A stretch of 64,000 nt of DNA from Fusobacteriota bacterium (GTDB lineage Bacteria; Fusobacteriota; Fusobacteriia; Fusobacteriales; JAAYPW01). The stretch's first letter is position 1, and every line of letters begins with the position of its first letter. The stretch lies in NCBI GenBank assembly GCA_012519615.1, contig JAAYPW010000115.1:29009-93008 (forward strand), given 5' to 3'. The notes beneath the pieces are model-generated. The model did not search any database. It was not told the DNA's origin and saw only the letters and a program-made list of their open reading frames with translations. Both the position numbers and the translations under genes were made by a program. Shown here piece after piece: positions 4,016 to 11,445 of the stretch.

Positions 4016-4720
4016 ATGATAAAATTGATAGGAATAATTGGTGCAATGCAAGAAGAAATAATAGAATTAAAAAAACAGATTAAAAACATTAAAGAGAATA
4101 CAATGGCAGGTTTTGTATTTTATAGTGGAATTCTAAATAAAAAAGATATAATACTTGTGCAAAGTGGAATAGGTAAAGTAAATTCAGCAATTTGTACAAC
4201 AATATTAATTGAACAATTTAATGTAACAAAAATAATATTCACAGGAGTAGCTGGTGGTGTTAATAATGATTTGAATGTAGGTGATATTGTTATTTCAAAA
4301 GACTTAATCCAACATGATGTTGATGCAACAGCTTTTGGTGCAAAGTATGGACAAATTCCTCGAATGAATCAACTAGAATTTAAGTCTGATATTAACTTAA
4401 TAGAATTAGCTAAAAAATCAGCAAAGGATATATTTACTAATGAAAAAATTGTAGTAGGACGTATATTAAGTGGTGATCAATTTGTAAGCTCAATTGAGAA
4501 AATTAAATGGTTAAGAGATAAATTTAATGGGGATTGTGTTGAGATGGAGGGTGCTTCTGTTGCTCATGTGGCTACACTTTTTAATATACCGTTTGTAGTA
4601 ATTAGATCAATATCAGATAAGGCAGATCACTCTGCAAATATTGATTTTAATAAATTTGTAAATATTGCTGCAAATAATTCTAAAAACATTGTTTTAAAAA
4701 TGTTAGAGATAATGGTATAA
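4016..4720 (+). CDS. mtnN: 5'-methylthioadenosine/S-adenosylhomocysteine nucleosidase
   Basis: Pfs-like sequence: IGIIGAMQEE, GIGKVNSA, FTGVAGG, EMEGASVAHV, RSISDKA. The SD AAAGGA abuts the ATG at 4016, so the in-frame TTG at 4025 (8-nt spacing) may be the real start. Confidence 0.9.
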   Translation: MIKLIGIIGAMQEEIIELKKQIKNIKENTMAGFVFYSGILNKKDIILVQSGIGKVNSAICTTILIEQFNVTKIIFTGVAGGVNNDLNVGDIVISKDLIQHDVDATAFGAKYGQIPRMNQLEFKSDINLIELAKKSAKDIFTNEKIVVGRILSGDQFVSSIEKIKWLRDKFNGDCVEMEGASVAHVATLFNIPFVVIRSISDKADHSANIDFNKFVNIAANNSKNIVLKMLEIMV

Positions 4721-4722
4721 TT

Positions 4723-5961
4723 ATGGATAAATTACTAGAGAAATTATATTCGTATAACTCAAAAGGAATTAAATTAGGTTTAGATAATATCAGAAAAATT
4801 ATGGATAAATTGGGAAATCCACAAAACAATTATAAAATAATACATATTGCTGGTACCAATGGTAAAGGCTCTACTGCATCTATTTTGGAAAATGTATTAA
4901 TAGAAAATTCTTATAAAGTCGGAAAATATACATCACCGCATTTAGTTAAATTTAATGAGAGAATTGTAGTCAATAGAGAGTTAGTAGAAGATTCAGAAAT
5001 AATATATTATTTTAATAAAATTGAAAAAATAGTAAATGATTTGGAAATAGAAGCGACTTTTTTTGAAATTACAACAGCAATAATGTTACAATATTTTTCT
5101 GATAAAAAAGTTGATTGGGCAATACTTGAAACAGGTATGGGTGGAAGATTTGACTCTACTAATATCGTGAATCCAACATTATCAGTAATAACAAATGTTT
5201 CCATAGACCATACTGAATTTTTAGGAGACACAATAGAAAAAATTGCACATGAAAAAGCTGGTATAATTAAAGAAAATATTCCTCTATTTTTTTGCGATGA
5301 TAAAGAAAATGTAAAAGAAATTTTTAAATCATATACTAATTTATATATAGATATTTTAGAAAAATATAATAACCACAGTTATTATTTAGATATGGAAAAT
5401 TACAATACTGTAATAAATATAGATAAAGAAACATACGTATTACCATTATTTGGAGATTTTCAATGTAATAATTTTTTAACAGCATATGGAGTACTTAGAA
5501 GTCTTGGTATATCAAAAGAAAGTATTAAACAGGGAATTAAAAACACTGTTTGGAGTGGCAGACTTGAAATTGTAAAAAAAGATAAAATTAATATTTTTGA
5601 TGGGGCACATAATTTTGATTCAGCAACTAAGTTATGCAATACTATAAAAAAAATGTATAATAAGGATGAAGTTATATTGGTATGTTCAATATTAAAAGAT
5701 AAAGATGTTAAAAAAATATTAGAAATTTTTTCAGACTTTTCAAGTTCTGTTGTATTTACTTCATTAGATTATTATCGTGGAATGTGTGCAAATGAATTAA
5801 AGAATATAGGAAGAGAATTTTTTAGTGAGATATATGTTGAAAATAGCATTCAAAAAGCAATTAATACTGCAAATTTAACAGATAAAAAAGCAGTTGTTTA
5901 TGCTGGTTCACTGTATTTTATAGGTGAATTAAAAAAGGTGATGGTTAATGAAATTAAATAA
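4723..5961 (+). CDS. folC: Folylpolyglutamate synthase / dihydrofolate synthase
   Basis: 412 aa with the Mur-ligase-type P-loop HIAGTNGKGST, plus TSPHLVKFNERI and ETGMGGRFDSTN. Confidence 0.9.
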   Translation: MDKLLEKLYSYNSKGIKLGLDNIRKIMDKLGNPQNNYKIIHIAGTNGKGSTASILENVLIENSYKVGKYTSPHLVKFNERIVVNRELVEDSEIIYYFNKIEKIVNDLEIEATFFEITTAIMLQYFSDKKVDWAILETGMGGRFDSTNIVNPTLSVITNVSIDHTEFLGDTIEKIAHEKAGIIKENIPLFFCDDKENVKEIFKSYTNLYIDILEKYNNHSYYLDMENYNTVINIDKETYVLPLFGDFQCNNFLTAYGVLRSLGISKESIKQGIKNTVWSGRLEIVKKDKINIFDGAHNFDSATKLCNTIKKMYNKDEVILVCSILKDKDVKKILEIFSDFSSSVVFTSLDYYRGMCANELKNIGREFFSEIYVENSIQKAINTANLTDKKAVVYAGSLYFIGELKKVMVNEIK

Positions 5962-6544
5962 AAAAATAAAATTTAAAAATAAAAAAATCAGAGTAATAAC
6001 AAAATTAGTATTTTTAATAGCATTTATTATTGCTTTTACAATTTTAACAAATAATATTAAAAATTCGTATGTTATATTAAAATATAATCAGAAAGATACA
6101 ATGAGAAATATTCAAAACAATATTAATATTAGAGAATCAAATTTTTATATAACTACGCCTGAAATCCCATATATACCTATAAAAAGCACTGAAGAAAATT
6201 GTGATACGAATAATATAGAAAAAGATTTAAATGAAATTATTATTGAATCAGAAAACGGAACAAAACTAGATGAAAATTTAAATGAAAATATTGCTGAAAA
6301 TGATAAAGAAAAAACTTATTATATACAAATAGCAGTATATAGAGATGAAAGAAATGCTAATGAGTGTATTAAATCATATAAAGAATATAATCCTGAGATT
6401 ATGGTACAAAGTATTAATAATGTAAAATATTATAAAATTATAATTAATAATTTTAATTCAATGAATGATGCTGAAATAAAACGTAATGAGATTATCCAAA
6501 AGAAAAAAATTAAAGAGATTCCTTTAATAAGATTAAAAATTTAA
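5948..6544 (+). CDS. Membrane-anchored SPOR-domain protein
   Basis: N-terminal TM helix (VITKLVFLIAFIIAFTILT). The C-terminal ~75 aa are SPOR-like (YYIQIAVYRDERNANE...YYKIIINNFNSMNDAE). It overlaps the folC end by 14 nt. Confidence 0.6.
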   Translation: MKLNKKIKFKNKKIRVITKLVFLIAFIIAFTILTNNIKNSYVILKYNQKDTMRNIQNNINIRESNFYITTPEIPYIPIKSTEENCDTNNIEKDLNEIIIESENGTKLDENLNENIAENDKEKTYYIQIAVYRDERNANECIKSYKEYNPEIMVQSINNVKYYKIIINNFNSMNDAEIKRNEIIQKKKIKEIPLIRLKI

Positions 6545-6562
6545 TTTAAAAAGGAGAATTTT

Positions 6563-8512
6563 ATGGAAAAATTAATAACTGTTGAGCAATTAGTTAAAGA
6601 TTTAAAATTACGTGTTCTTTGTGGTAAAGATAATTTGTTAAAAACAAATATAACTGCTGATATTTACAGACCCGGAATAGAATTAACAGGATATTTATTA
6701 GAAAACAATCAAAATTTAGATAAGTATATTCATGTTATTGGTAAAGAGGAGGTAAAATATTTCTATTCATTACCAGAAGATATAAGAAAAGAGAATTTTA
6801 TAAGATATTTTAGTTATTCATTTCCTTGTTTAATTGTTGTAGATAATAAAAATTTAAAAAAAGATTTTATAGAGATTGCAAAAATTGAAAATAAAATATT
6901 ACTTCAAGTGAAGGGAACAATTCAAAGCTTTTTAACAATATTACGTATATATTTGCAAAAGGAACTTGCTCCTGAAATTATTTTAAATAATTTTACACTA
7001 TTAGATATTTTTGGAATTGGTTTAATGATTACAGGAGATGAAAGTGCTAAAATTGGTTCGACAATTGAATTACTTGAAAAAGGACATAGATTTATAACTG
7101 ATGAGTTACTTGTTATAAAAAAAATATCTGATACACAATTAATTGGTGAAAATGGATATCATCAAAATCAAAAAAATAAGAGATATATATTAAAAGTATT
7201 TAATGATGAAAAAATTGATGTTGTTGAGTACTTTGGAATAGGTTCATCCCGTAGAAATAAAGAAATTGATTTAATTATAAAATTTGAAAAATGGGATAGC
7301 AATAAAACATATGATAGACTAGGTGTTGATATAACAAATCAATATTTATTGGGAATAAATATCCCAAAACTTGTAATACCAGTAAGAAAAGGTAGAAATT
7401 TAGGAATTATACTAGAAACTGCTGCAATTAATGAAAGACTAAAAAAAAGTGGAGAAAATTCAGCTCTTACATTTATTAATGAAACTCAAAAAATGATTAC
7501 AATTAATCGTAAAAAAAGAGAAAAAATTGAGGAGGGCAAAATGAGTAATAACAAAATAATAAATGCTAGAACCATTAAAGAAAAATTTGACCTTAAAATT
7601 TTATATGGTGAATCTTTATTAGATGAAAAAAATCTTACAACCCCATATATACACAGACCTTCCTTGGAATTTTCTGGGTTCTATGAAATTTTGGAAGAGG
7701 GTGGGTATAAAAATCTTCAATTAATTGGTCAATCAGAATTAAATTATTTAAATAAATTATTAGACCAAAAAAGAGATAGATATTTAGAACACTATTTTAG
7801 CTATGATTTTCCATTTTTGTTAATAACTGGTGCAAAAAATGTGCCTGATTATATTATAAAAAATGTAAAAGAAAAAAATCATTTATTAATGTGTACCGAA
7901 CAAGATATAAATGAGGTTTCTGAAGAATTAATTGATTATTTTGAAAAAGAATTTGCAGAAGAAATAACTATGCATGGAGTATTAGTTGAAGTATTTGGAT
8001 TCGGAGTTATGCTTATTGGTAAAAGCGGGATAGGTAAAAGTGAAACAGCTTTGGAATTAATTCACAGAGGTCATAGATTAATTGCTGATGATAAGGTGAG
8101 ATTTGTCAAATATAATGATGGTCGAGTAATAGGTAGTGGACATAAATCACTGTACTTTATGGAGATACGAGGCATTGGAATTATTGATATAAAAACTTTA
8201 TATGGATTAGGATCAGTAAGGCATGAAAAACAACTTGATGTGGTAATAGAATTAAAGGAATTAAAAGTTGAAGATTACCTTACAAAAAAAGAGGAACCAA
8301 AAGAGGAAATTGAAATATTGGGAAAAAAATTTCCTAAAATTGAATTATATATATCTTCAGGAAGAAACGCATCATCAATGGTTGAAGTATCTACCATGAA
8401 CTTACGTGCAAAATTCTTAGGATATGAAAATGAAAAAAGAACGGAAAATATGGACAAAAAAGATAATTTCTTTTCTAATATTGGAAATATAATTACAGGG
8501 AGAAAAAAATAA
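6563..8512 (+). CDS. hprK: HPr kinase/phosphorylase, tandem two-module fusion (649 aa)
   Basis: Two HprK-like modules, aa 1-326 and 327-649. The second carries an intact P-loop, GKSGIGKSETALELIHRGHRLIADD, and EIRGIGIIDI. The first has GDESAKIGST at the P-loop position but keeps YDRLG...IPVRKGRNLGIILETAAINERLK. Confidence 0.85.
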   Translation: MEKLITVEQLVKDLKLRVLCGKDNLLKTNITADIYRPGIELTGYLLENNQNLDKYIHVIGKEEVKYFYSLPEDIRKENFIRYFSYSFPCLIVVDNKNLKKDFIEIAKIENKILLQVKGTIQSFLTILRIYLQKELAPEIILNNFTLLDIFGIGLMITGDESAKIGSTIELLEKGHRFITDELLVIKKISDTQLIGENGYHQNQKNKRYILKVFNDEKIDVVEYFGIGSSRRNKEIDLIIKFEKWDSNKTYDRLGVDITNQYLLGINIPKLVIPVRKGRNLGIILETAAINERLKKSGENSALTFINETQKMITINRKKREKIEEGKMSNNKIINARTIKEKFDLKILYGESLLDEKNLTTPYIHRPSLEFSGFYEILEEGGYKNLQLIGQSELNYLNKLLDQKRDRYLEHYFSYDFPFLLITGAKNVPDYIIKNVKEKNHLLMCTEQDINEVSEELIDYFEKEFAEEITMHGVLVEVFGFGVMLIGKSGIGKSETALELIHRGHRLIADDKVRFVKYNDGRVIGSGHKSLYFMEIRGIGIIDIKTLYGLGSVRHEKQLDVVIELKELKVEDYLTKKEEPKEEIEILGKKFPKIELYISSGRNASSMVEVSTMNLRAKFLGYENEKRTENMDKKDNFFSNIGNIITGRKK

Positions 8513-9234
8513 TGAAATATAATATTGATTTACATGTACATAGCGTTGCTTCACAACATGCTTATAGTACAATTGAGGAGATAGCAAGGCAGGCAAATAA
8601 AAAAGGGATAAAAGCATTTGCAATAACTGATCACGGACCAAATGCACCAGATGCCCCTTATAGGTATTATTTTTCAAATTTACGAGTTATACCAAATTAT
8701 ATAGACGGTGTGAGGATATATAAAGGGATTGAAGCAAATATAATATCTGAAAAAGGGGAAATAGATCTAGGGGATAATGATTTAAATAAACTAGATATTG
8801 TGTTAGCAGCATTTCATAAAAATACTGGTTATAATCATGAGACTTATGATAAAAATACAAATGCAGTAATAAATGGTATAAAATCTGGAAAAATAGATGT
8901 ACTTGCTCATATGGGGCATCCTTTATTTCAATTAAATTATGAATTAGCTGTTAAAACTGCAAAAGAGTACAATACTGCTATTGAGATAAACAATAGTTCC
9001 TTCACAGGAAGTAGAAAAGGTGGAGAAAAAAATTGTCATGAAATAATAAAATTAGCAAAAAAATATGGGTGTTTTATAAGTCTGGGGAGTGATTCACATA
9101 TATCTTTTTGTGTAGGAGAATTGTTTGAATCAATTAAATTAATAGAACAATATGATTATGATCAAAATCTAATAATAAATCAAAGCATGGAATTTTTAGA
9201 GAATTTTTTAAAAAATCGAAAAAAGGTGAAGTAA
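8512..9234 (+). CDS. PHP-family metal-dependent phosphoesterase (YcdX-like)
   Basis: 240 aa with PHP motifs: DLHVHSVAS, AITDHGP, AAFH, LAHMGHP, LGSDSH. Both ends show a 1-nt TAATG overlap, with hprK upstream and folB downstream. Confidence 0.8.
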   Translation: MKYNIDLHVHSVASQHAYSTIEEIARQANKKGIKAFAITDHGPNAPDAPYRYYFSNLRVIPNYIDGVRIYKGIEANIISEKGEIDLGDNDLNKLDIVLAAFHKNTGYNHETYDKNTNAVINGIKSGKIDVLAHMGHPLFQLNYELAVKTAKEYNTAIEINNSSFTGSRKGGEKNCHEIIKLAKKYGCFISLGSDSHISFCVGELFESIKLIEQYDYDQNLIINQSMEFLENFLKNRKKVK

Positions 9235-9605
9235 TGAGTGATAAAATTATTATAAAAAATATGAAAATTTATGGATTTCATGGTGTTTTAGAAGAGGAAA
9301 AAAAATTAGGACAAAATTATTTTATTGATGTTATAATTACTAAATCTTTAAAAAAAGCTTGTTTAAGCGATAATTTAAATGATTCAATAGATTATTCAAA
9401 AATATATTATGATATTGTAGATTTATCAAATGTAAATAAATTTAATTTAATTGAAGCATTTGCTGAAAATATTTGCACACTAATAATTGAAAAATATGTA
9501 GTAAAGAAAATCGAAGTTACTATAAAAAAACCAAATGCACCAATAAATGGAAATTTCGAATATGTTGCAATAAACATTACAAGGGAGAATAGTAATGAAA
9601 TATAA
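9234..9605 (+). CDS. folB: Dihydroneopterin aldolase
   Basis: 123 aa with FolB-like IIIKNMKIYGFHGVLEEEKKLGQNYFIDV and a VTIKKPNAPI tail. Confidence 0.85.
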   Translation: MSDKIIIKNMKIYGFHGVLEEEKKLGQNYFIDVIITKSLKKACLSDNLNDSIDYSKIYYDIVDLSNVNKFNLIEAFAENICTLIIEKYVVKKIEVTIKKPNAPINGNFEYVAINITRENSNEI

Positions 9606-10467
9606 AAATGTATTTTTAAGTGTAGGAACAAATCTTGGTAATAAAATAGAAAATATTATAACATCAATTATTAAAATTTCACAAATAGACAATACAAGAA
9701 TAATAAAAATTTCTTCATTATATGAAACTTTTCCGGTAGGGAATGCATTACAACCAAACTTTTATAATATTGGAATATATCTACAAACTAAGTTAAATCC
9801 ATATAAATTTTTGGAAGAAATAAATAAAATTGAAAATGATTTACATAGAGAGAGAATAGAATTTTGGGGAAGCAGAACAATTGATATTGATATTATATTA
9901 TATGAAAATATGAATATTAATACAGAAAAATTAACTATTCCACATAAAGAATATAAAAAAAGAAATTTTGTTTTAGAGCCTTTATATGAAATTTTTCCAT
10001 TTATTCGTCGTATGAAAAAAAATCTAAAATACGGAATTACTCGTAAAATTAAACCAAATATAAATATAGGTATAAGTGCTTGTATAGTTGGCATAAATAC
10101 AAAATATAACGGTGGTAATAATTATAAAAATATCTTTAAAGAGATGTATAAAATTGTTAATTTAATACCTTTATGTCCAGAACAACTATCAGGATTAAGT
10201 ACACCAAGAAATTCTGTGGAAATAGATAATAATAGAGTAATTGATGTATATAAAAATGATTATACGAATAAATTTATGATTGGAGCGTATGAATCATATA
10301 AAATACTTAAATTATTAAAATGTGAAATAGTGATTTTAAAATCCAATAGTCCTTCTTGTGGATACAAAGGGGTATATAATGGTAGTTTTAATAATACTCT
10401 CATATTAGGAAATGGAATAAGTGTAGATTATTATTTAAAAAAGAACATAAAAATTATAAAATATTAA
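9595..10467 (+). CDS. folK: HPPK (2-amino-4-hydroxy-6-hydroxymethyldihydropteridine diphosphokinase) fused to a DUF523 (TudS-like) domain
   Basis: The N-terminal ~150 aa are HPPK-like (VFLSVGTNLG, WGSRTIDIDIILY, IPHKEYKKRNFVLEPL). The C-terminal ~135 aa carry the three DUF523 Cys motifs: ISACIVG, LCPEQLSGLSTPR, SPSCGY. Confidence 0.8.
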   Translation: MKYKNVFLSVGTNLGNKIENIITSIIKISQIDNTRIIKISSLYETFPVGNALQPNFYNIGIYLQTKLNPYKFLEEINKIENDLHRERIEFWGSRTIDIDIILYENMNINTEKLTIPHKEYKKRNFVLEPLYEIFPFIRRMKKNLKYGITRKIKPNINIGISACIVGINTKYNGGNNYKNIFKEMYKIVNLIPLCPEQLSGLSTPRNSVEIDNNRVIDVYKNDYTNKFMIGAYESYKILKLLKCEIVILKSNSPSCGYKGVYNGSFNNTLILGNGISVDYYLKKNIKIIKY

Positions 10468-10482
10468 TTATTGGAGGTAAAA

Positions 10483-11445
10483 ATGTTTAATGAAATAAAA
10501 GAAAAAATTCAAAACGCAAAAAGGATACTAATTACTGCTCATAAAAATCCTGATGGAGATGCAATTGGATCTGGACTTGCGTTAATGTTAGCTTTGAATG
10601 CCTTAAATTCAGATAAAGAAAAAATTATAAGATTTGTTATTGACGATAAGATACCTAAATATCTTAAGTTTTTAAATCATTCTTTTTTAATAGAGGAGAA
10701 ATCTAACGTTGATACAAAGTATAAATTTGATTTGATAATAGCTCTTGATAGCGCTAATATTGAAAGAATTGGGAGAGTTGCAGAATTTATAGATGAGACG
10801 AATACTGTAATAAATATTGATCACCATATAAGTAATACTAAATATGGAAATATCAATTTTATTGGTTCAGAATATTCATCTACTTCAGAAATTATATATG
10901 AACTAATACAATTTTTAAATATTAAAATTGATTTGGATATTGCTGAGGCAATCTATACAGGTATTGTAAATGATACTGGAAATTTTGCATATAGTAATGT
11001 TACTGAAAAAACATTTTTCATAGCATATGAGTTAAAAAAAATTGGAGTAGATAATTCAAAAATAAATAATATTTTATTTAAAAATAAATCATTAAAGCAG
11101 ATGAAACTTTTTGGAAAATTATTTACGGAGTTTGTATTTGTAAAGGAAAAAAAATTAATATATTATTTTTTATCATATAATGATATGAAAAGTGATAAAC
11201 TTACAAAAGATGATACGGAAGGGCTTGTGGACTTTTTACGTGATTTTGAAGAAGCTGACTTTAGTTTATTTTTAAGAGAGGAAGAAAATGGTTCTGTTAA
11301 GGGTAGTATTAGATCAAAAAATGGAGATTCAAATCATTTAGCTTCGTTATTTAATGGTGGCGGTCATAAAAAAGCAGCAGGATTTACGTCAAGTTTAAGT
11401 TCTACAGAAGTAATAGATATAATAATGAAAAATATAATTAATTAA
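10483..11445 (+). CDS. nrnA: DHH/DHHA1 phosphoesterase (NrnA-type oligoribonuclease / pAp phosphatase)
   Basis: Motifs AHKNPDGDAIGS, DSAN, NIDHH and GGGHKKAAGF. GGAGG (10473-10477) favours the ATG at 10483 over the listed TTG at 10471. Confidence 0.85.
   Translation: MFNEIKEKIQNAKRILITAHKNPDGDAIGSGLALMLALNALNSDKEKIIRFVIDDKIPKYLKFLNHSFLIEEKSNVDTKYKFDLIIALDSANIERIGRVAEFIDETNTVINIDHHISNTKYGNINFIGSEYSSTSEIIYELIQFLNIKIDLDIAEAIYTGIVNDTGNFAYSNVTEKTFFIAYELKKIGVDNSKINNILFKNKSLKQMKLFGKLFTEFVFVKEKKLIYYFLSYNDMKSDKLTKDDTEGLVDFLRDFEEADFSLFLREEENGSVKGSIRSKNGDSNHLASLFNGGGHKKAAGFTSSLSSTEVIDIIMKNIIN

What the first reader, a model, noticed from the sequence alone, without database searches (positions are those of the whole stretch)
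6563..8512. Tandem-duplicated HPr kinase/phosphorylase with complementary degeneration and an internal RBS
Seen in sequence:
- The 649-aa ORF is two HprK/P-length modules, about twice the usual ~310 aa.
- Module 2 (aa 327-649) has the intact P-loop GKSGIGKSE, the preceding HGVLV and EIRGIGI. Its C-terminal region is divergent (ISSGRNASSMVEV in place of PVRxGRN).
- Module 1 has lost the His and the P-loop Lys-Ser (NNFTLL..., GDESAKIGST). It retains the canonical C-terminal YDRLG...IPVRKGRNLGIILETAAINERLK.
- A strong internal SD (GAGGAGGG, 7529-7536) sits 4 nt before the in-frame ATG at 7541 that opens module 2. A stand-alone active kinase could therefore be co-produced.

Established knowledge: HprK/P works as a homohexamer whose C-terminal regions contribute to neighbouring active sites.

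Inference: this is a pseudo-kinase/kinase fusion forming a built-in heterodimer, likely a trimer of fused dimers. It looks like a fusion of two tandem paralogues.
Basis: partly seen in the sequence, partly recalled or inferred. Interest (0 to 1): 0.65.

Follow-up and report, generated by a model that had tools for sequence, protein, structure and literature searches.

The report
Fusobacterial double HPr kinase, half dead
This gene encodes two HPr-kinase units joined in one protein, each keeping only the half of the shared active site that the other has lost, and a conserved ribosome-binding site and start codon at the joint probably let the cell also make the second unit alone.

Summary
ORF 6563-8512 (+) encodes 649 aa made of two complete HprK/P modules, each with an N and a C domain. 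It is not an assembly artefact: more than 120 double-length homologues exist across Fusobacteriales (Fusobacteriaceae, Haliovirgaceae, Leptotrichiaceae). A 2008 paper already mentioned the fusion for F. nucleatum in one sentence.

Two findings seem to be unreported in the literature I could search.
- **Complementary loss.** In 118 homologues, module 2 keeps 100% of the catalytic-side residues (His140, Walker A, Asp179, Glu204, Arg206) and 0% of Trp237, Tyr243, Asp244, Arg245 and Pro266. Module 1 shows the reverse. In ordinary HprK/P, Arg245 and the C-terminal helix reach into a neighbouring subunit's active site. Each chain should therefore hold one composite site (module 2 catalytic half plus module 1 trans half).
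- **Conserved internal start.** All 37 main-clade loci with DNA have an SD plus start codon at the junction. Val is always GTG and Leu always TTG, both rare codons. SD strength (-8.2 kcal/mol) is close to that of true gene starts (-9.2), against -1.5 for background. A module-2-only product is likely.

The oligomer, the enzyme activity and the second product are untested. This is a new variant of a known kind.

The parts
6551..6557 (+). Shine-Dalgarno (AAGGAGA) of the full-length gene, 5 nt before the ATG at 6563
   Evidence: Read directly from the sequence. Own-start SD energies in 30 homologous loci average -9.2 kcal/mol.
6563..8512 (+). Tandem hprK ORF, 649 aa plus stop. The stop TAA (8510-8512) overlaps the ATG (8512) of the downstream PHP-domain gene by 1 nt.
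6563..7540 (+). Module 1 (aa 1-326): a complete HprK/P-like unit (N domain aa 5-131, C domain aa 145-306) that is catalytically dead but conserved. It acts as the 'trans half' donor.
   Evidence: Pfam N 2e-24 and C 3e-36. TIGR00679 217 bits, below the 240 cut-off. Residue table. Module-1 clade bootstrap 293/300 and 43% mean identity between species.
7034..7063 (+). Module 1 degenerate P-loop GDESAKIGST (aa 158-167). It is one residue shorter than Walker A and has no GK[ST].
   Evidence: Ser162 0%, Glu163 replaced by Gly in 100%, Gly160 replaced by Ala in 93%. Still patterned: G158, G165 and E169 are invariant in A1.
7310..7324 (+). Module 1 YDRLG (aa 250-254), equivalent to L. casei Tyr243-Asp244-Arg245-Leu-Gly: the flexible-loop arginine that acts in a neighbouring subunit's active site
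   Evidence: 100% conserved in 118 module-1 sequences. Role of Arg245 taken from PMC9399212.
7379..7399 (+). Module 1 canonical K3 loop PVRKGRN (aa 273-279), followed by the conserved C-terminal helices (ETAAINERLK...)
   Evidence: P266 100%, V267 98%, G270/R271/N272 100%, F297 100%, I305 99%.
7511..7558 (+). Inter-module linker (about aa 317-332). Lys/Arg/Glu-rich, variable in sequence, low AF2 confidence (residues 321-329 below pLDDT 50).
7521..7526 (+). A6 run. One extra A here gives gaa aaa aat TGA, which ends module 1 just before the internal start. This split allele is seen in one near-identical metagenome contig.
   Evidence: P0270 (322 aa, ends ...REKN) and P0272 (323 aa, equal to residues 327-649) lie on one JGI contig.
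7529..7536 (+). Internal Shine-Dalgarno GAGGAGGG (duplex energy -12.7 kcal/mol with the anti-SD)
   Evidence: An SD-like motif is conserved at this position in all 37 main-clade loci although the linker residues differ.
7541..7543 (+). Internal in-frame ATG (Met327), the putative start of a module-2-only product of 323 aa
   Evidence: The junction column is M in 76, V in 29 and L in 7 of 118 sequences. V is always GTG and L is always TTG in the loci with DNA.
7541..8509 (+). Module 2 (aa 327-649): a complete HprK/P unit holding all catalytic-side residues
   Evidence: Pfam N 9e-25 and C 8.6e-53. TIGR00679 286 bits, above the 240 cut-off..
7973..7975 (+). Module 2 His471, equivalent to L. casei His140
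   Evidence: H in 100% of 118 module-2 sequences and 0% of module-1 sequences.
8018..8041 (+). Module 2 Walker A GKSGIGKS (aa 486-493)
   Evidence: G155, S157, G158, G160, K161 and S162 are 100% conserved. Invariant in A1.
8087..8092 (+). Module 2 Asp509-Asp510, equivalent to L. casei Asp178-Asp179 (catalytic acid/base)
   Evidence: 100% conserved.
8162..8182 (+). Module 2 HprK/P signature EIRGIGI (aa 534-540; Glu204, Arg206, Gly207 equivalents)
   Evidence: 100% conserved in module 2 and lost in module 1.
8258..8296 (+). Module 2 replacement of the Trp237...YDRLG loop (ELKVEDYLTKKEE). There is no Trp, no Asp-Arg-Leu-Gly and no Arg245.
   Evidence: W237, Y243, D244, R245 and G247 are each 0% in 118 module-2 sequences. 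AF2 pLDDT is below 50 at residues 572-577.
8345..8368 (+). Module 2 derived K3 loop LYISSGRN (aa 595-602). It differs from the canonical PV(R/K)xGRN but is itself nearly invariant in the family.
   Evidence: P266 replaced by Y in 83%, K268 replaced by S in 99%, G270 and R271 100%, N272 99%. L595, G600 and R601 are invariant; I597, S598, S599 and N602 are at least 90% conserved.

Best explanation
This is the Fusobacteriales form of HPr kinase/phosphorylase: one gene encoding two full HprK/P units in tandem that have divided the composite active site between them.

In ordinary homohexameric HprK/P, each active site is built from two subunits. One supplies His140, the P-loop, Asp179 and the Glu204/Arg206 signature (the cis half). 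The adjacent one supplies Arg245 on a flexible loop and the C-terminal helix that docks HPr (the trans half).

Here module 2 keeps only the cis half and module 1 keeps only the trans half. Each 649-aa chain can therefore form one complete site (module 2 cis + module 1 trans) and one dead site. Module 1 is a conserved pseudo-kinase whose job is to complete module 2's site and present the substrate to it.

The most economical assembly is a pseudo-D3 'hexamer' of three chains with three active sites instead of six.

A conserved SD plus ATG/GTG/TTG at the module junction most likely also starts translation internally. That would give a 37-kDa module-2-only product alongside the 75-kDa chain, and so more module 2 than module 1.

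Shown: the architecture, the complementary residue pattern and its conservation, the nucleotide-level conservation of the internal start signal, and the phylum-wide spread.

Inferred: trans-complementation within or between chains, the oligomer, actual use of the internal start, and activity on HPr Ser46.
For: Architecture:
- Two N+C HprK/P units by Pfam and TIGR00679.
- The AF2 model (pLDDT 80.4) matches 1ko7_A at TM 0.84.

Spread:
- More than 120 double-length homologues of 605-665 aa in Fusobacteriaceae, Haliovirgaceae and Leptotrichiaceae.
- Only 5 double-length cluster representatives among 1.84 billion.

Complementarity (118 + 118 modules against 121 singles):
- Module 2 has 100% H140, G158, G160, K161, S162, E163, D178, D179, E204, R206 and G207, and 0% W237, Y243, D244, R245, G247 and P266.
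- Module 1 has 0% H140, S162, E163, E204 and R206, 11% D179, and 100% W237, Y243, D244, R245, G247, P266, G270, R271, N272 and F297.
- The same pattern holds in the most divergent branches.

Module 1 is maintained, not decaying: mean identity between species is 43%, against 48% for module 2, and each module class is monophyletic (293/300 and 247/300).

Composite site: PMC9399212 lists the substrate site as Arg245, Thr294, Leu301 and Ile305 from one subunit plus His140', Ser157', Asp179' and Glu204' from the other.

Internal start:
- All 37 main-clade loci have an SD plus a start codon at the junction. Aligned Val is GTG in 4/4 and Leu is TTG in 2/2, where GTG is 3-15% of Val codons and TTG 1-17% of Leu codons (joint about 1e-6).
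- Junction SD energy averages -8.2, against -1.5 for 782 other in-frame start-capable codons (Mann-Whitney p = 8e-20) and -9.2 for true starts.
- The junction SD is in the top 1% of all codon positions in its own ORF, and the top 4% among purine-matched windows.
- TTG starts carry the strongest SDs.
- A gene caller used this ATG when a 1-nt indel split the gene.
Against: - No biochemical, structural or proteomic data exist for any tandem HprK in the literature I could search.
- I could not establish whether the two subunits that share a site in canonical HprK/P are related by the two-fold or by the three-fold axis. The primary structure papers are not held. If it is the three-fold neighbour, a simple trimer of tandem chains would not pair every module 2 with a module 1.
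- The AF2 job returns no coordinates, so the module 1-module 2 interface was not examined.
- The internal start is not universal. P0121 (L169) has no start-capable codon with an SD in its linker, and P0122 has only a weak one at -4.9.
- The linker is purine-rich, which by itself raises SD-like scores: the purine-matched control gives the top 4%, not the top 1%.
- Related lineages are not independent, so the 1e-6 figure is an upper bound on the significance.
- Module 1's patterned pseudo-P-loop could have a ligand-binding role of its own.
Confidence: 0.62

Rival explanations
1. The protein is made only as the full-length chain. The junction SD and start codon are a relic of a former two-gene arrangement, or a by-product of a purine-rich, Gly-containing linker, or act as a translational pause that helps the two modules fold one after the other. 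They do not serve as an initiation site.
For: The linker is Lys/Arg/Glu/Gly-rich, and such codons generate SD-like strings. In purine-matched windows the junction SD is only in the top 4%. One lineage (P0121/L169) has no internal start and another has a weak one, so the element can be lost. No second product has been observed experimentally.
Against: A relic or a composition effect does not explain why Val is always GTG and Leu always TTG at this one column when those codons make up 1-17% of usage. It does not explain why the SD persists while the linker amino acids change (GEES, RGE, GNL, GDNK, REED, EEGK). It does not explain why weak TTG starts have the strongest SDs. A pause site would need the SD but not a start codon.
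Confidence: 0.2
2. Module 1 is not mainly a trans-complementing half-site. It is an allosteric sensor. Its reshaped pseudo-P-loop still binds a phosphorylated effector (fructose-1,6-bisphosphate, Pi, PPi or a nucleotide) and regulates module 2, much as the non-catalytic N-terminal domain is proposed to do in the related PDRP.
For: The pseudo-P-loop is not random. G151, G153, G158, G165 and E169 are invariant, and T167, H175 and D180 are nearly so. PDRP, a structural relative of HprK/P, has two domains with the same fold and P-loops. [quoted passage not shown]
Against: The most strictly conserved module-1 features are the trans elements themselves: W237, Y243, D244, R245, G247, the K3 loop and the C-terminal helix are at 99-100%. 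These are exactly what module 2 has lost. A sensor role would not require that complementarity. The two roles can coexist.
Confidence: 0.12
3. The double length is an artefact: two adjacent ordinary hprK genes merged by a sequencing or assembly error that removed a stop codon.
For: One near-identical contig encodes the two modules as separate 322-aa and 323-aa proteins. The junction lies next to A-runs that are prone to indel errors.
Against: The fused frame is found in more than 120 clusters from independent assemblies, including the complete genome of Haliovirga abyssi and chromosome-level MAGs. All 40 loci with DNA that I inspected are open through the junction. The split copy is the exception and is explained by +1 A in an A6 run. 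Neither module is an ordinary HprK.
Confidence: 0.02
4. Module 1 is a decaying, functionless remnant of a duplicated kinase that is being carried along.
For: It has lost every catalytic-side residue and falls below the TIGR00679 cut-off (217 against 240 bits).
Against: Identity between species is 43%, against 48% for the active module. There are about 50 invariant positions across 13-27 diverse sequences. It has been retained across three families of the order.
Confidence: 0.03

Closest known systems
Canonical HPr kinase/phosphorylase (HprK/P; L. casei 1JB1/1KKL/1KKM, S. xylosus 1KO7, M. pneumoniae 1KNX)
   Same: Same two-domain fold in each module (Pfam PF02603 + PF07475; Foldseek TM 0.84 to 1ko7_A). 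Module 2 has every catalytic-side residue. The G-R-N of the K3 loop is kept in both modules.
   Different: The canonical enzyme is a chain of about 310 aa that forms a homohexamer with six equivalent composite sites. Here two non-equivalent units are fused, and each lacks one half of the site. At most one complete site per two units is possible. Module 1 alone fails the TIGR00679 cut-off.
Tandem HprK of Fusobacterium nucleatum as noted by Zuniga and co-workers, BMC Evol Biol 2008 (PMC2405797)
   Same: [quoted passage not shown] The window protein is an orthologue in an uncultured Fusobacteriota MAG.
   Different: That paper gives one sentence and no residue-level analysis. The complementary loss of half-sites, the phylum-wide conservation and the conserved internal start were not described there or in any other paper I could search.
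PDRP/PSRP (DUF299) bifunctional kinase/pyrophosphorylases
   Same: A structural relative of HprK/P with two tandem domains of the same fold, both with P-loops. Only the C-terminal one is catalytic, and the N-terminal one is proposed to be regulatory (PMC9138534).
   Different: PDRP duplicates only the catalytic-type domain within a protein of about 270-430 aa and forms a homodimer. Here whole two-domain HprK/P units are duplicated, and the dead unit keeps exactly the trans-acting active-site elements.
Heterodimeric ABC transporters with one consensus and one degenerate ATP site (from my own knowledge, not checked here)
   Same: A composite nucleotide site is built from two homologous halves. 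After duplication, complementary substitutions kill one of the two sites and leave the other intact.
   Different: Unrelated fold and function. This is an analogy of evolutionary logic only.
Bacterial genes with in-frame internal translation starts that give two isoforms (for example CheA-L/CheA-S, IF2 alpha/beta, ClpB 93/79; from my own knowledge, not checked here)
   Same: An in-frame SD plus start codon inside an ORF, conserved among relatives, gives a full-length product and an N-terminally shortened one.
   Different: In those cases the two products have been shown experimentally. Here the second product is inferred only from sequence conservation.

Membership tests
HPr kinase/phosphorylase (TIGR00679; PF02603 + PF07475) | Hpr_kinase_N followed by Hpr_kinase_C domain | tested here: met
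   Both modules, each scanned alone, match both profiles nearly full length.
HPr kinase/phosphorylase (TIGR00679; PF02603 + PF07475) | Score above the NCBIfam equivalog cut-off (240 bits) | tested here: met
   Whole protein 491 bits and module 2 alone 286 bits. Module 1 alone scores 217 bits and does not pass.
HPr kinase/phosphorylase (TIGR00679; PF02603 + PF07475) | Walker A P-loop GxxGxGK[ST], with Lys161 and Ser162 | tested here: met
   Module 2 has GKSGIGKS, 100% conserved. Module 1 does not (GDESAKIGST; Ser162 0%, Glu163 replaced by Gly in 100%).
HPr kinase/phosphorylase (TIGR00679; PF02603 + PF07475) | Catalytic His140, Asp179 and the signature Glu204-x-Arg206-Gly | tested here: met
   All are 100% conserved in module 2. 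In module 1 they are 0%, 11%, 0% and 0%.
HPr kinase/phosphorylase (TIGR00679; PF02603 + PF07475) | Arg245 on the flexible loop (W...Y-D-R-L-G) in the same subunit that carries the catalytic residues | tested here: not met
   Module 2 has 0% R245, D244, W237 and G247. Only the catalytically dead module 1 carries them, at 100%. Taken as a whole the chain has one copy of each element, but they sit on different modules.
HPr kinase/phosphorylase (TIGR00679; PF02603 + PF07475) | K3 loop P-V-(R/K)-x-G-R-N | tested here: met
   Canonical in module 1. Derived in module 2 (Y-I-S-S-G-R-N), with G-R-N kept at 99-100%.
HPr kinase/phosphorylase (TIGR00679; PF02603 + PF07475) | HprK/P three-dimensional fold | tested here: met
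   AF2 pLDDT 80.4. Foldseek gives 1ko7_A E = 9e-27 and TM 0.84, and the 1knx, 1kkm, 2qmh and 3tqf chains also match.
HPr kinase/phosphorylase (TIGR00679; PF02603 + PF07475) | Homohexamer with D3 symmetry | not testable with these tools
   Only a single-chain model without coordinates is returned. A homohexamer of six equivalent sites is impossible given the residue pattern.
HPr kinase/phosphorylase (TIGR00679; PF02603 + PF07475) | ATP/PPi-dependent phosphorylation of HPr Ser46 and Pi-dependent phosphorolysis | not testable with these tools
   This needs an enzyme assay. No ptsH gene lies in the 64-kb window.
Fusobacterial tandem HprK (PMC2405797) | Two HprK units in one polypeptide, in a member of Fusobacteriota | tested here: met
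   The identical protein is named 'HPr(Ser) kinase/phosphatase [Fusobacteria bacterium]', NLK63059.1.
Genes with a functional in-frame internal translation start | In-frame start codon with an SD at proper spacing, conserved among orthologues beyond what the protein sequence requires | tested here: met
   37/37 main-clade loci. GTG and TTG are used specifically. SD -8.2 against a background of -1.5. It is absent in one divergent lineage and weak in another.
Genes with a functional in-frame internal translation start | Two protein products detected | not testable with these tools
   This needs a western blot, N-terminomics or initiation-site ribosome profiling.

The most novel reading that the evidence does not exclude
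The Fusobacteriales HprK/P is an obligate pseudo-heteromer in which a dedicated pseudo-kinase module supplies Arg245 and the HPr-docking helix to a catalytic module that can no longer supply them to itself. The cell sets the ratio of catalytic to pseudo-kinase modules by translating one ORF from two starts. If the composite site in HprK/P lies between three-fold neighbours, the extra free module 2 would be needed to fill the rings. That would give a mixed assembly of 75-kDa and 37-kDa products with fewer active sites, and possibly different kinase/phosphorylase balance, than any known HprK/P.
Probability: 0.35. Interest if true: 0.68.

Novelty: new variant of a known kind. Interest (0 to 1): 0.55.

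Why it matters
HprK/P is the central sensor of carbon catabolite control in Firmicutes and a proposed antibacterial target. Its shared active site and its cooperativity have only been studied in symmetric homohexamers.

The Fusobacteriales enzyme is a natural experiment. Evolution has separated the cis and trans halves of the site onto two covalently linked modules and kept both for the whole history of the order. This makes three questions directly testable:
- what Arg245 and the C-terminal helix contribute in trans;
- whether half the sites are enough;
- how the pseudo-site is used.

It also adds a bacterial P-loop example to the pseudo-kinase/kinase theme. It is a well-supported candidate for a conserved internal translation start in Fusobacterium, a genus of medical interest.

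For annotation, gene callers and NCBIfam name the protein as an ordinary HPr(Ser) kinase/phosphatase, or as 'hypothetical' in Sebaldella. That hides the fact that one half cannot be a kinase.

Tried and rejected
- **Sequencing-error fusion:** rejected by more than 120 independent double-length homologues and by 40 loci that are open through the junction.
- **Lineages with the modules as separate genes:** none found. L082, L091 and L092 first looked like non-tandems but were missed by my regex (their P-loop is GRSGIGKS) and are fused. P0126 (327 aa, module-2-like) is a contig-edge fragment that begins inside module 1. P0145 is a UvrC-HprK gene-call chimera. The only split copy is the +1 A allele.
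- **Genome and metagenome scans:** They gave 31 tandem loci, not a census.
- **Hexamer geometry** (which neighbour shares the site): the primary papers (PNAS 2002 complex, EMBO J 2001, PNAS 2002 S. xylosus, MMBR 2006) are not held. The held papers say only 'adjacent subunit'.
- **AFDB search** for named tandem homologues: the library was not available.
- **First phylogeny script:** timed out and was redone with vectorised code.
- **Duplication in situ versus fusion of two paralogues:** the NJ tree never makes module 1 and module 2 sisters (0/300), but long branches make this inconclusive.
Full report
**1. The observation.** The window (25% G+C) carries an ORF at 6563-8512 (+) of 649 aa, preceded by AAGGAGA 5 nt upstream. 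Pfam finds Hpr_kinase_N + Hpr_kinase_C twice. When the halves (aa 1-326 and 327-649) are scanned separately, each matches both profiles almost end to end. The NCBIfam equivalog TIGR00679 scores 491 bits for the whole protein, 286 for the second half and 217 for the first half, against a cut-off of 240. An AlphaFold2 model built on 27 homologues has mean pLDDT 80.4 and pTM 0.60. Confidence is low only at residues 202-204, in the inter-module linker (321-329), in a loop of module 2 (572-577) and in the C-terminal tail. Foldseek matches the model to S. xylosus HprK/P (1ko7_A, E = 9e-27, TM 0.84) and to the other HprK/P entries.

**2. Not an artefact, and not new as an architecture.** The identical protein is deposited as 'HPr(Ser) kinase/phosphatase' of a Fusobacteria MAG.
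- A search of 5.8 billion proteins returned 120 top hits. All of them are double-length apart from two truncated entries (503 and 570 aa). They come from Cetobacterium, Ilyobacter, Psychrilyobacter, Haliovirga abyssi (complete genome) and many Fusobacteriaceae MAGs.
- A search seeded with the most divergent branch reached Sebaldella.
- The form therefore spans Fusobacteriaceae, Haliovirgaceae and Leptotrichiaceae.
- An exhaustive HMMER pass over 1.84 billion cluster representatives found only five double-length representatives. Everything else is about 310 aa.
[quoted passage not shown] I found no further analysis of it in the searchable literature.

**3. Complementary loss of half-sites.** I split 118 double-length proteins into their modules and aligned them with L. 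casei and S. xylosus HprK/P and with 121 ordinary single-module enzymes. In L. casei numbering:

| Residue group | Module 2 | Module 1 |
|---|---|---|
| H140, G158, G160, K161, S162, E163, D178, D179, E204, R206, G207 | 100% | H140, S162, E204, R206 0%; E163 is Gly in 100%; D179 11%; P-loop one residue shorter |
| W237, Y243, D244, R245, G247, P266 | 0% | 100% |
| G270, R271, N272 | 99-100% | 100% |
| F297, I305 | not conserved | 100%, 99% |

The same pattern holds in the three most divergent tandem clusters and in the Sebaldella branch. Module 1 is not decaying. Its mean identity between species is 43%, against 48% for module 2, and it has about 50 invariant positions. Module 2's altered K3 loop (LYISSGRNAA) and module 1's altered P-loop are themselves nearly invariant, so both are derived states under selection.

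**4. What the residues do.** According to PMC9399212, which summarises the L. casei HprK/P-HPr crystal structures:
- Arg245 on the flexible loop of that other subunit stabilises the interaction and is counted as an active-site residue.
- The substrate site is listed as Arg245, Thr294, Leu301 and Ile305 from one chain plus His140', Ser157', Asp179', Arg180', Ile198', Leu199' and Glu204' from the other.
- The K3 loop of a neighbour also packs next to the P-loop.

Mapping this onto the table above, module 2 is a pure cis half and module 1 is a pure trans half. A chain can therefore build one complete site (module 2 cis + module 1 trans), and the reciprocal site is dead. This step is an inference from residue identity and published structures. 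It was not tested here.

**5. The internal start is conserved at the nucleotide level.** In the protein alignment, the column of Met327 is Met in 76, Val in 29 and Leu in 7 of 118 sequences. I collected DNA for 37 main-clade tandem loci.
- Every one has a start-capable codon at or within a few codons of that column, preceded by an SD-like motif about 5-8 nt upstream, although the linker residues differ between lineages.
- Where the residue is Val the codon is GTG (4/4), and where it is Leu the codon is TTG (2/2). In those genes GTG is 3-15% of Val codons and TTG is 1-17% of Leu codons. The joint probability is about 1e-6 if the lineages are treated as independent, which overstates it.
- The apparent exceptions (L164, L167) carry AAGGAGG-N5-TTG three codons downstream.
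- The anti-SD duplex energy at the junction averages -8.2 kcal/mol (30 non-identical loci). The 782 other in-frame ATG/GTG/TTG codons of the same genes average -1.5 (p = 8e-20), and the genes' own starts average -9.2.
- The junction SD ranks in the top 1% (median) of all codon positions in its ORF, and in the top 4% among windows of equal purine content.
- The TTG starts have the strongest SDs.
- The Sebaldella branch conserves G-R-N-(K/S)-M in 7 of 8 sequences (Met in all 8), read as GGGAGAaataagATG in L171 at -7.3.
- The signal is missing in P0121 and weak in P0122, so it can be lost.
- In one contig more than 90% identical to the window, an extra A in the A6 run at 7521-7526 creates TGA just before the start. 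The gene caller then called module 2 from this ATG.

**6. Evolution.** Module-1 sequences form one clade (293/300 bootstraps) and module-2 sequences form another (247/300). The two modules of one protein share only 26% identity, less than either shares with ordinary HprK/P (29% and 31%). The NJ tree never makes them sisters. The two-module state therefore predates the radiation of the order. Whether it arose by in-situ duplication or by fusion of two paralogues cannot be decided, and no split-gene lineage was found. Synteny is conserved: mtnN, folC, a small or SPOR-domain protein, hprK, a YitT or PHP gene, folB, folK and nrnA.

**7. Most likely mechanism, and its limits.** I favour a pseudo-hexamer of three chains with three composite sites, in which module 1 is a conserved pseudo-kinase that completes module 2's site and docks HPr onto it, plus a module-2-only isoform from the internal start.
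- Canonical elements pair with canonical ones (module 1 K3 loop and Arg245 with the module 2 P-loop), and derived elements pair with derived ones (module 2 K3 loop with the module 1 pseudo-P-loop). This fits a reciprocal, two-fold-like module 1-module 2 pairing, but I could not confirm which symmetry mate shares the site in the crystal structures.
- If it is the three-fold neighbour, three tandem chains cannot pair every module 2 with a module 1. The free module 2 might then be a structural necessity.
- Enzyme activity, the oligomer and the second product all remain to be shown.

**8. Verdict.** The residue-level complementarity and the conserved internal start appear to be undescribed. This is a new variant of a known kind and of moderate interest.

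Noticed in passing
window 7521-7526 (A6 run); proteins P0270/P0272 on one JGI contig: A contig more than 90% identical to the window encodes the two modules as separate proteins of 322 and 323 aa. One extra A turns gaa aaa att gag into gaa aaa aat TGA, so module 1 stops inside the SD and module 2 starts at the internal ATG. This could be a homopolymer sequencing error or a real split allele. Either way, a single indel converts the fused form into the split form.
   Followed up: partly
window 8510-8514: The hprK stop codon TAA overlaps the ATG of the downstream PHP-domain gene by one base (TAATG), which suggests translational coupling. In other lineages a YitT/DUF2179 membrane-protein gene occupies this position instead of the PHP gene.
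   Followed up: partly
window 9595-10467: The folK (HPPK) gene is fused to a 2-thiouracil desulfurase (PF04463/DUF523) domain in a single 290-aa ORF. The same fusion is called in Cetobacterium and Haliovirga loci (L162, L166).
   Followed up: no
window 4016-11445 and loci L161-L171: The gene order around hprK is conserved across Fusobacteriales: mtnN, folC, a small or SPOR-domain protein, hprK, a YitT or PHP gene, folB, folK and nrnA (DHH/DHHA1). This is a folate/nucleotide housekeeping context with no PTS or ccpA genes nearby, and no ptsH in the 64-kb window.
   Followed up: partly
L169 (protein P0121): This is the one tandem lineage without any SD/start signal at the junction. It also has a different upstream context (asp23, DUF2273, nusB) and three consecutive YitT paralogues downstream. 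Its module 2 K3 loop reads FYVTPGRS.
   Followed up: partly
protein P0145 (552 aa): An apparent UvrC C-terminal fragment fused in frame to an ordinary single-module HprK. It is probably a frameshift or gene-call chimera reflecting uvrC-hprK adjacency in a Firmicute.
   Followed up: no
protein P0287 (Sebaldella sp.): NCBI names the Sebaldella tandem HprK 'hypothetical protein', so the Leptotrichiaceae branch escapes the standard HprK annotation rule.
   Followed up: no
L163 3417-4920: In one Cetobacterium-like contig the downstream YitT/DUF2179 and DHH/DHHA1 (nrnA) genes are called as a single 614-aa product, a possible fusion or a missed stop.
   Followed up: no
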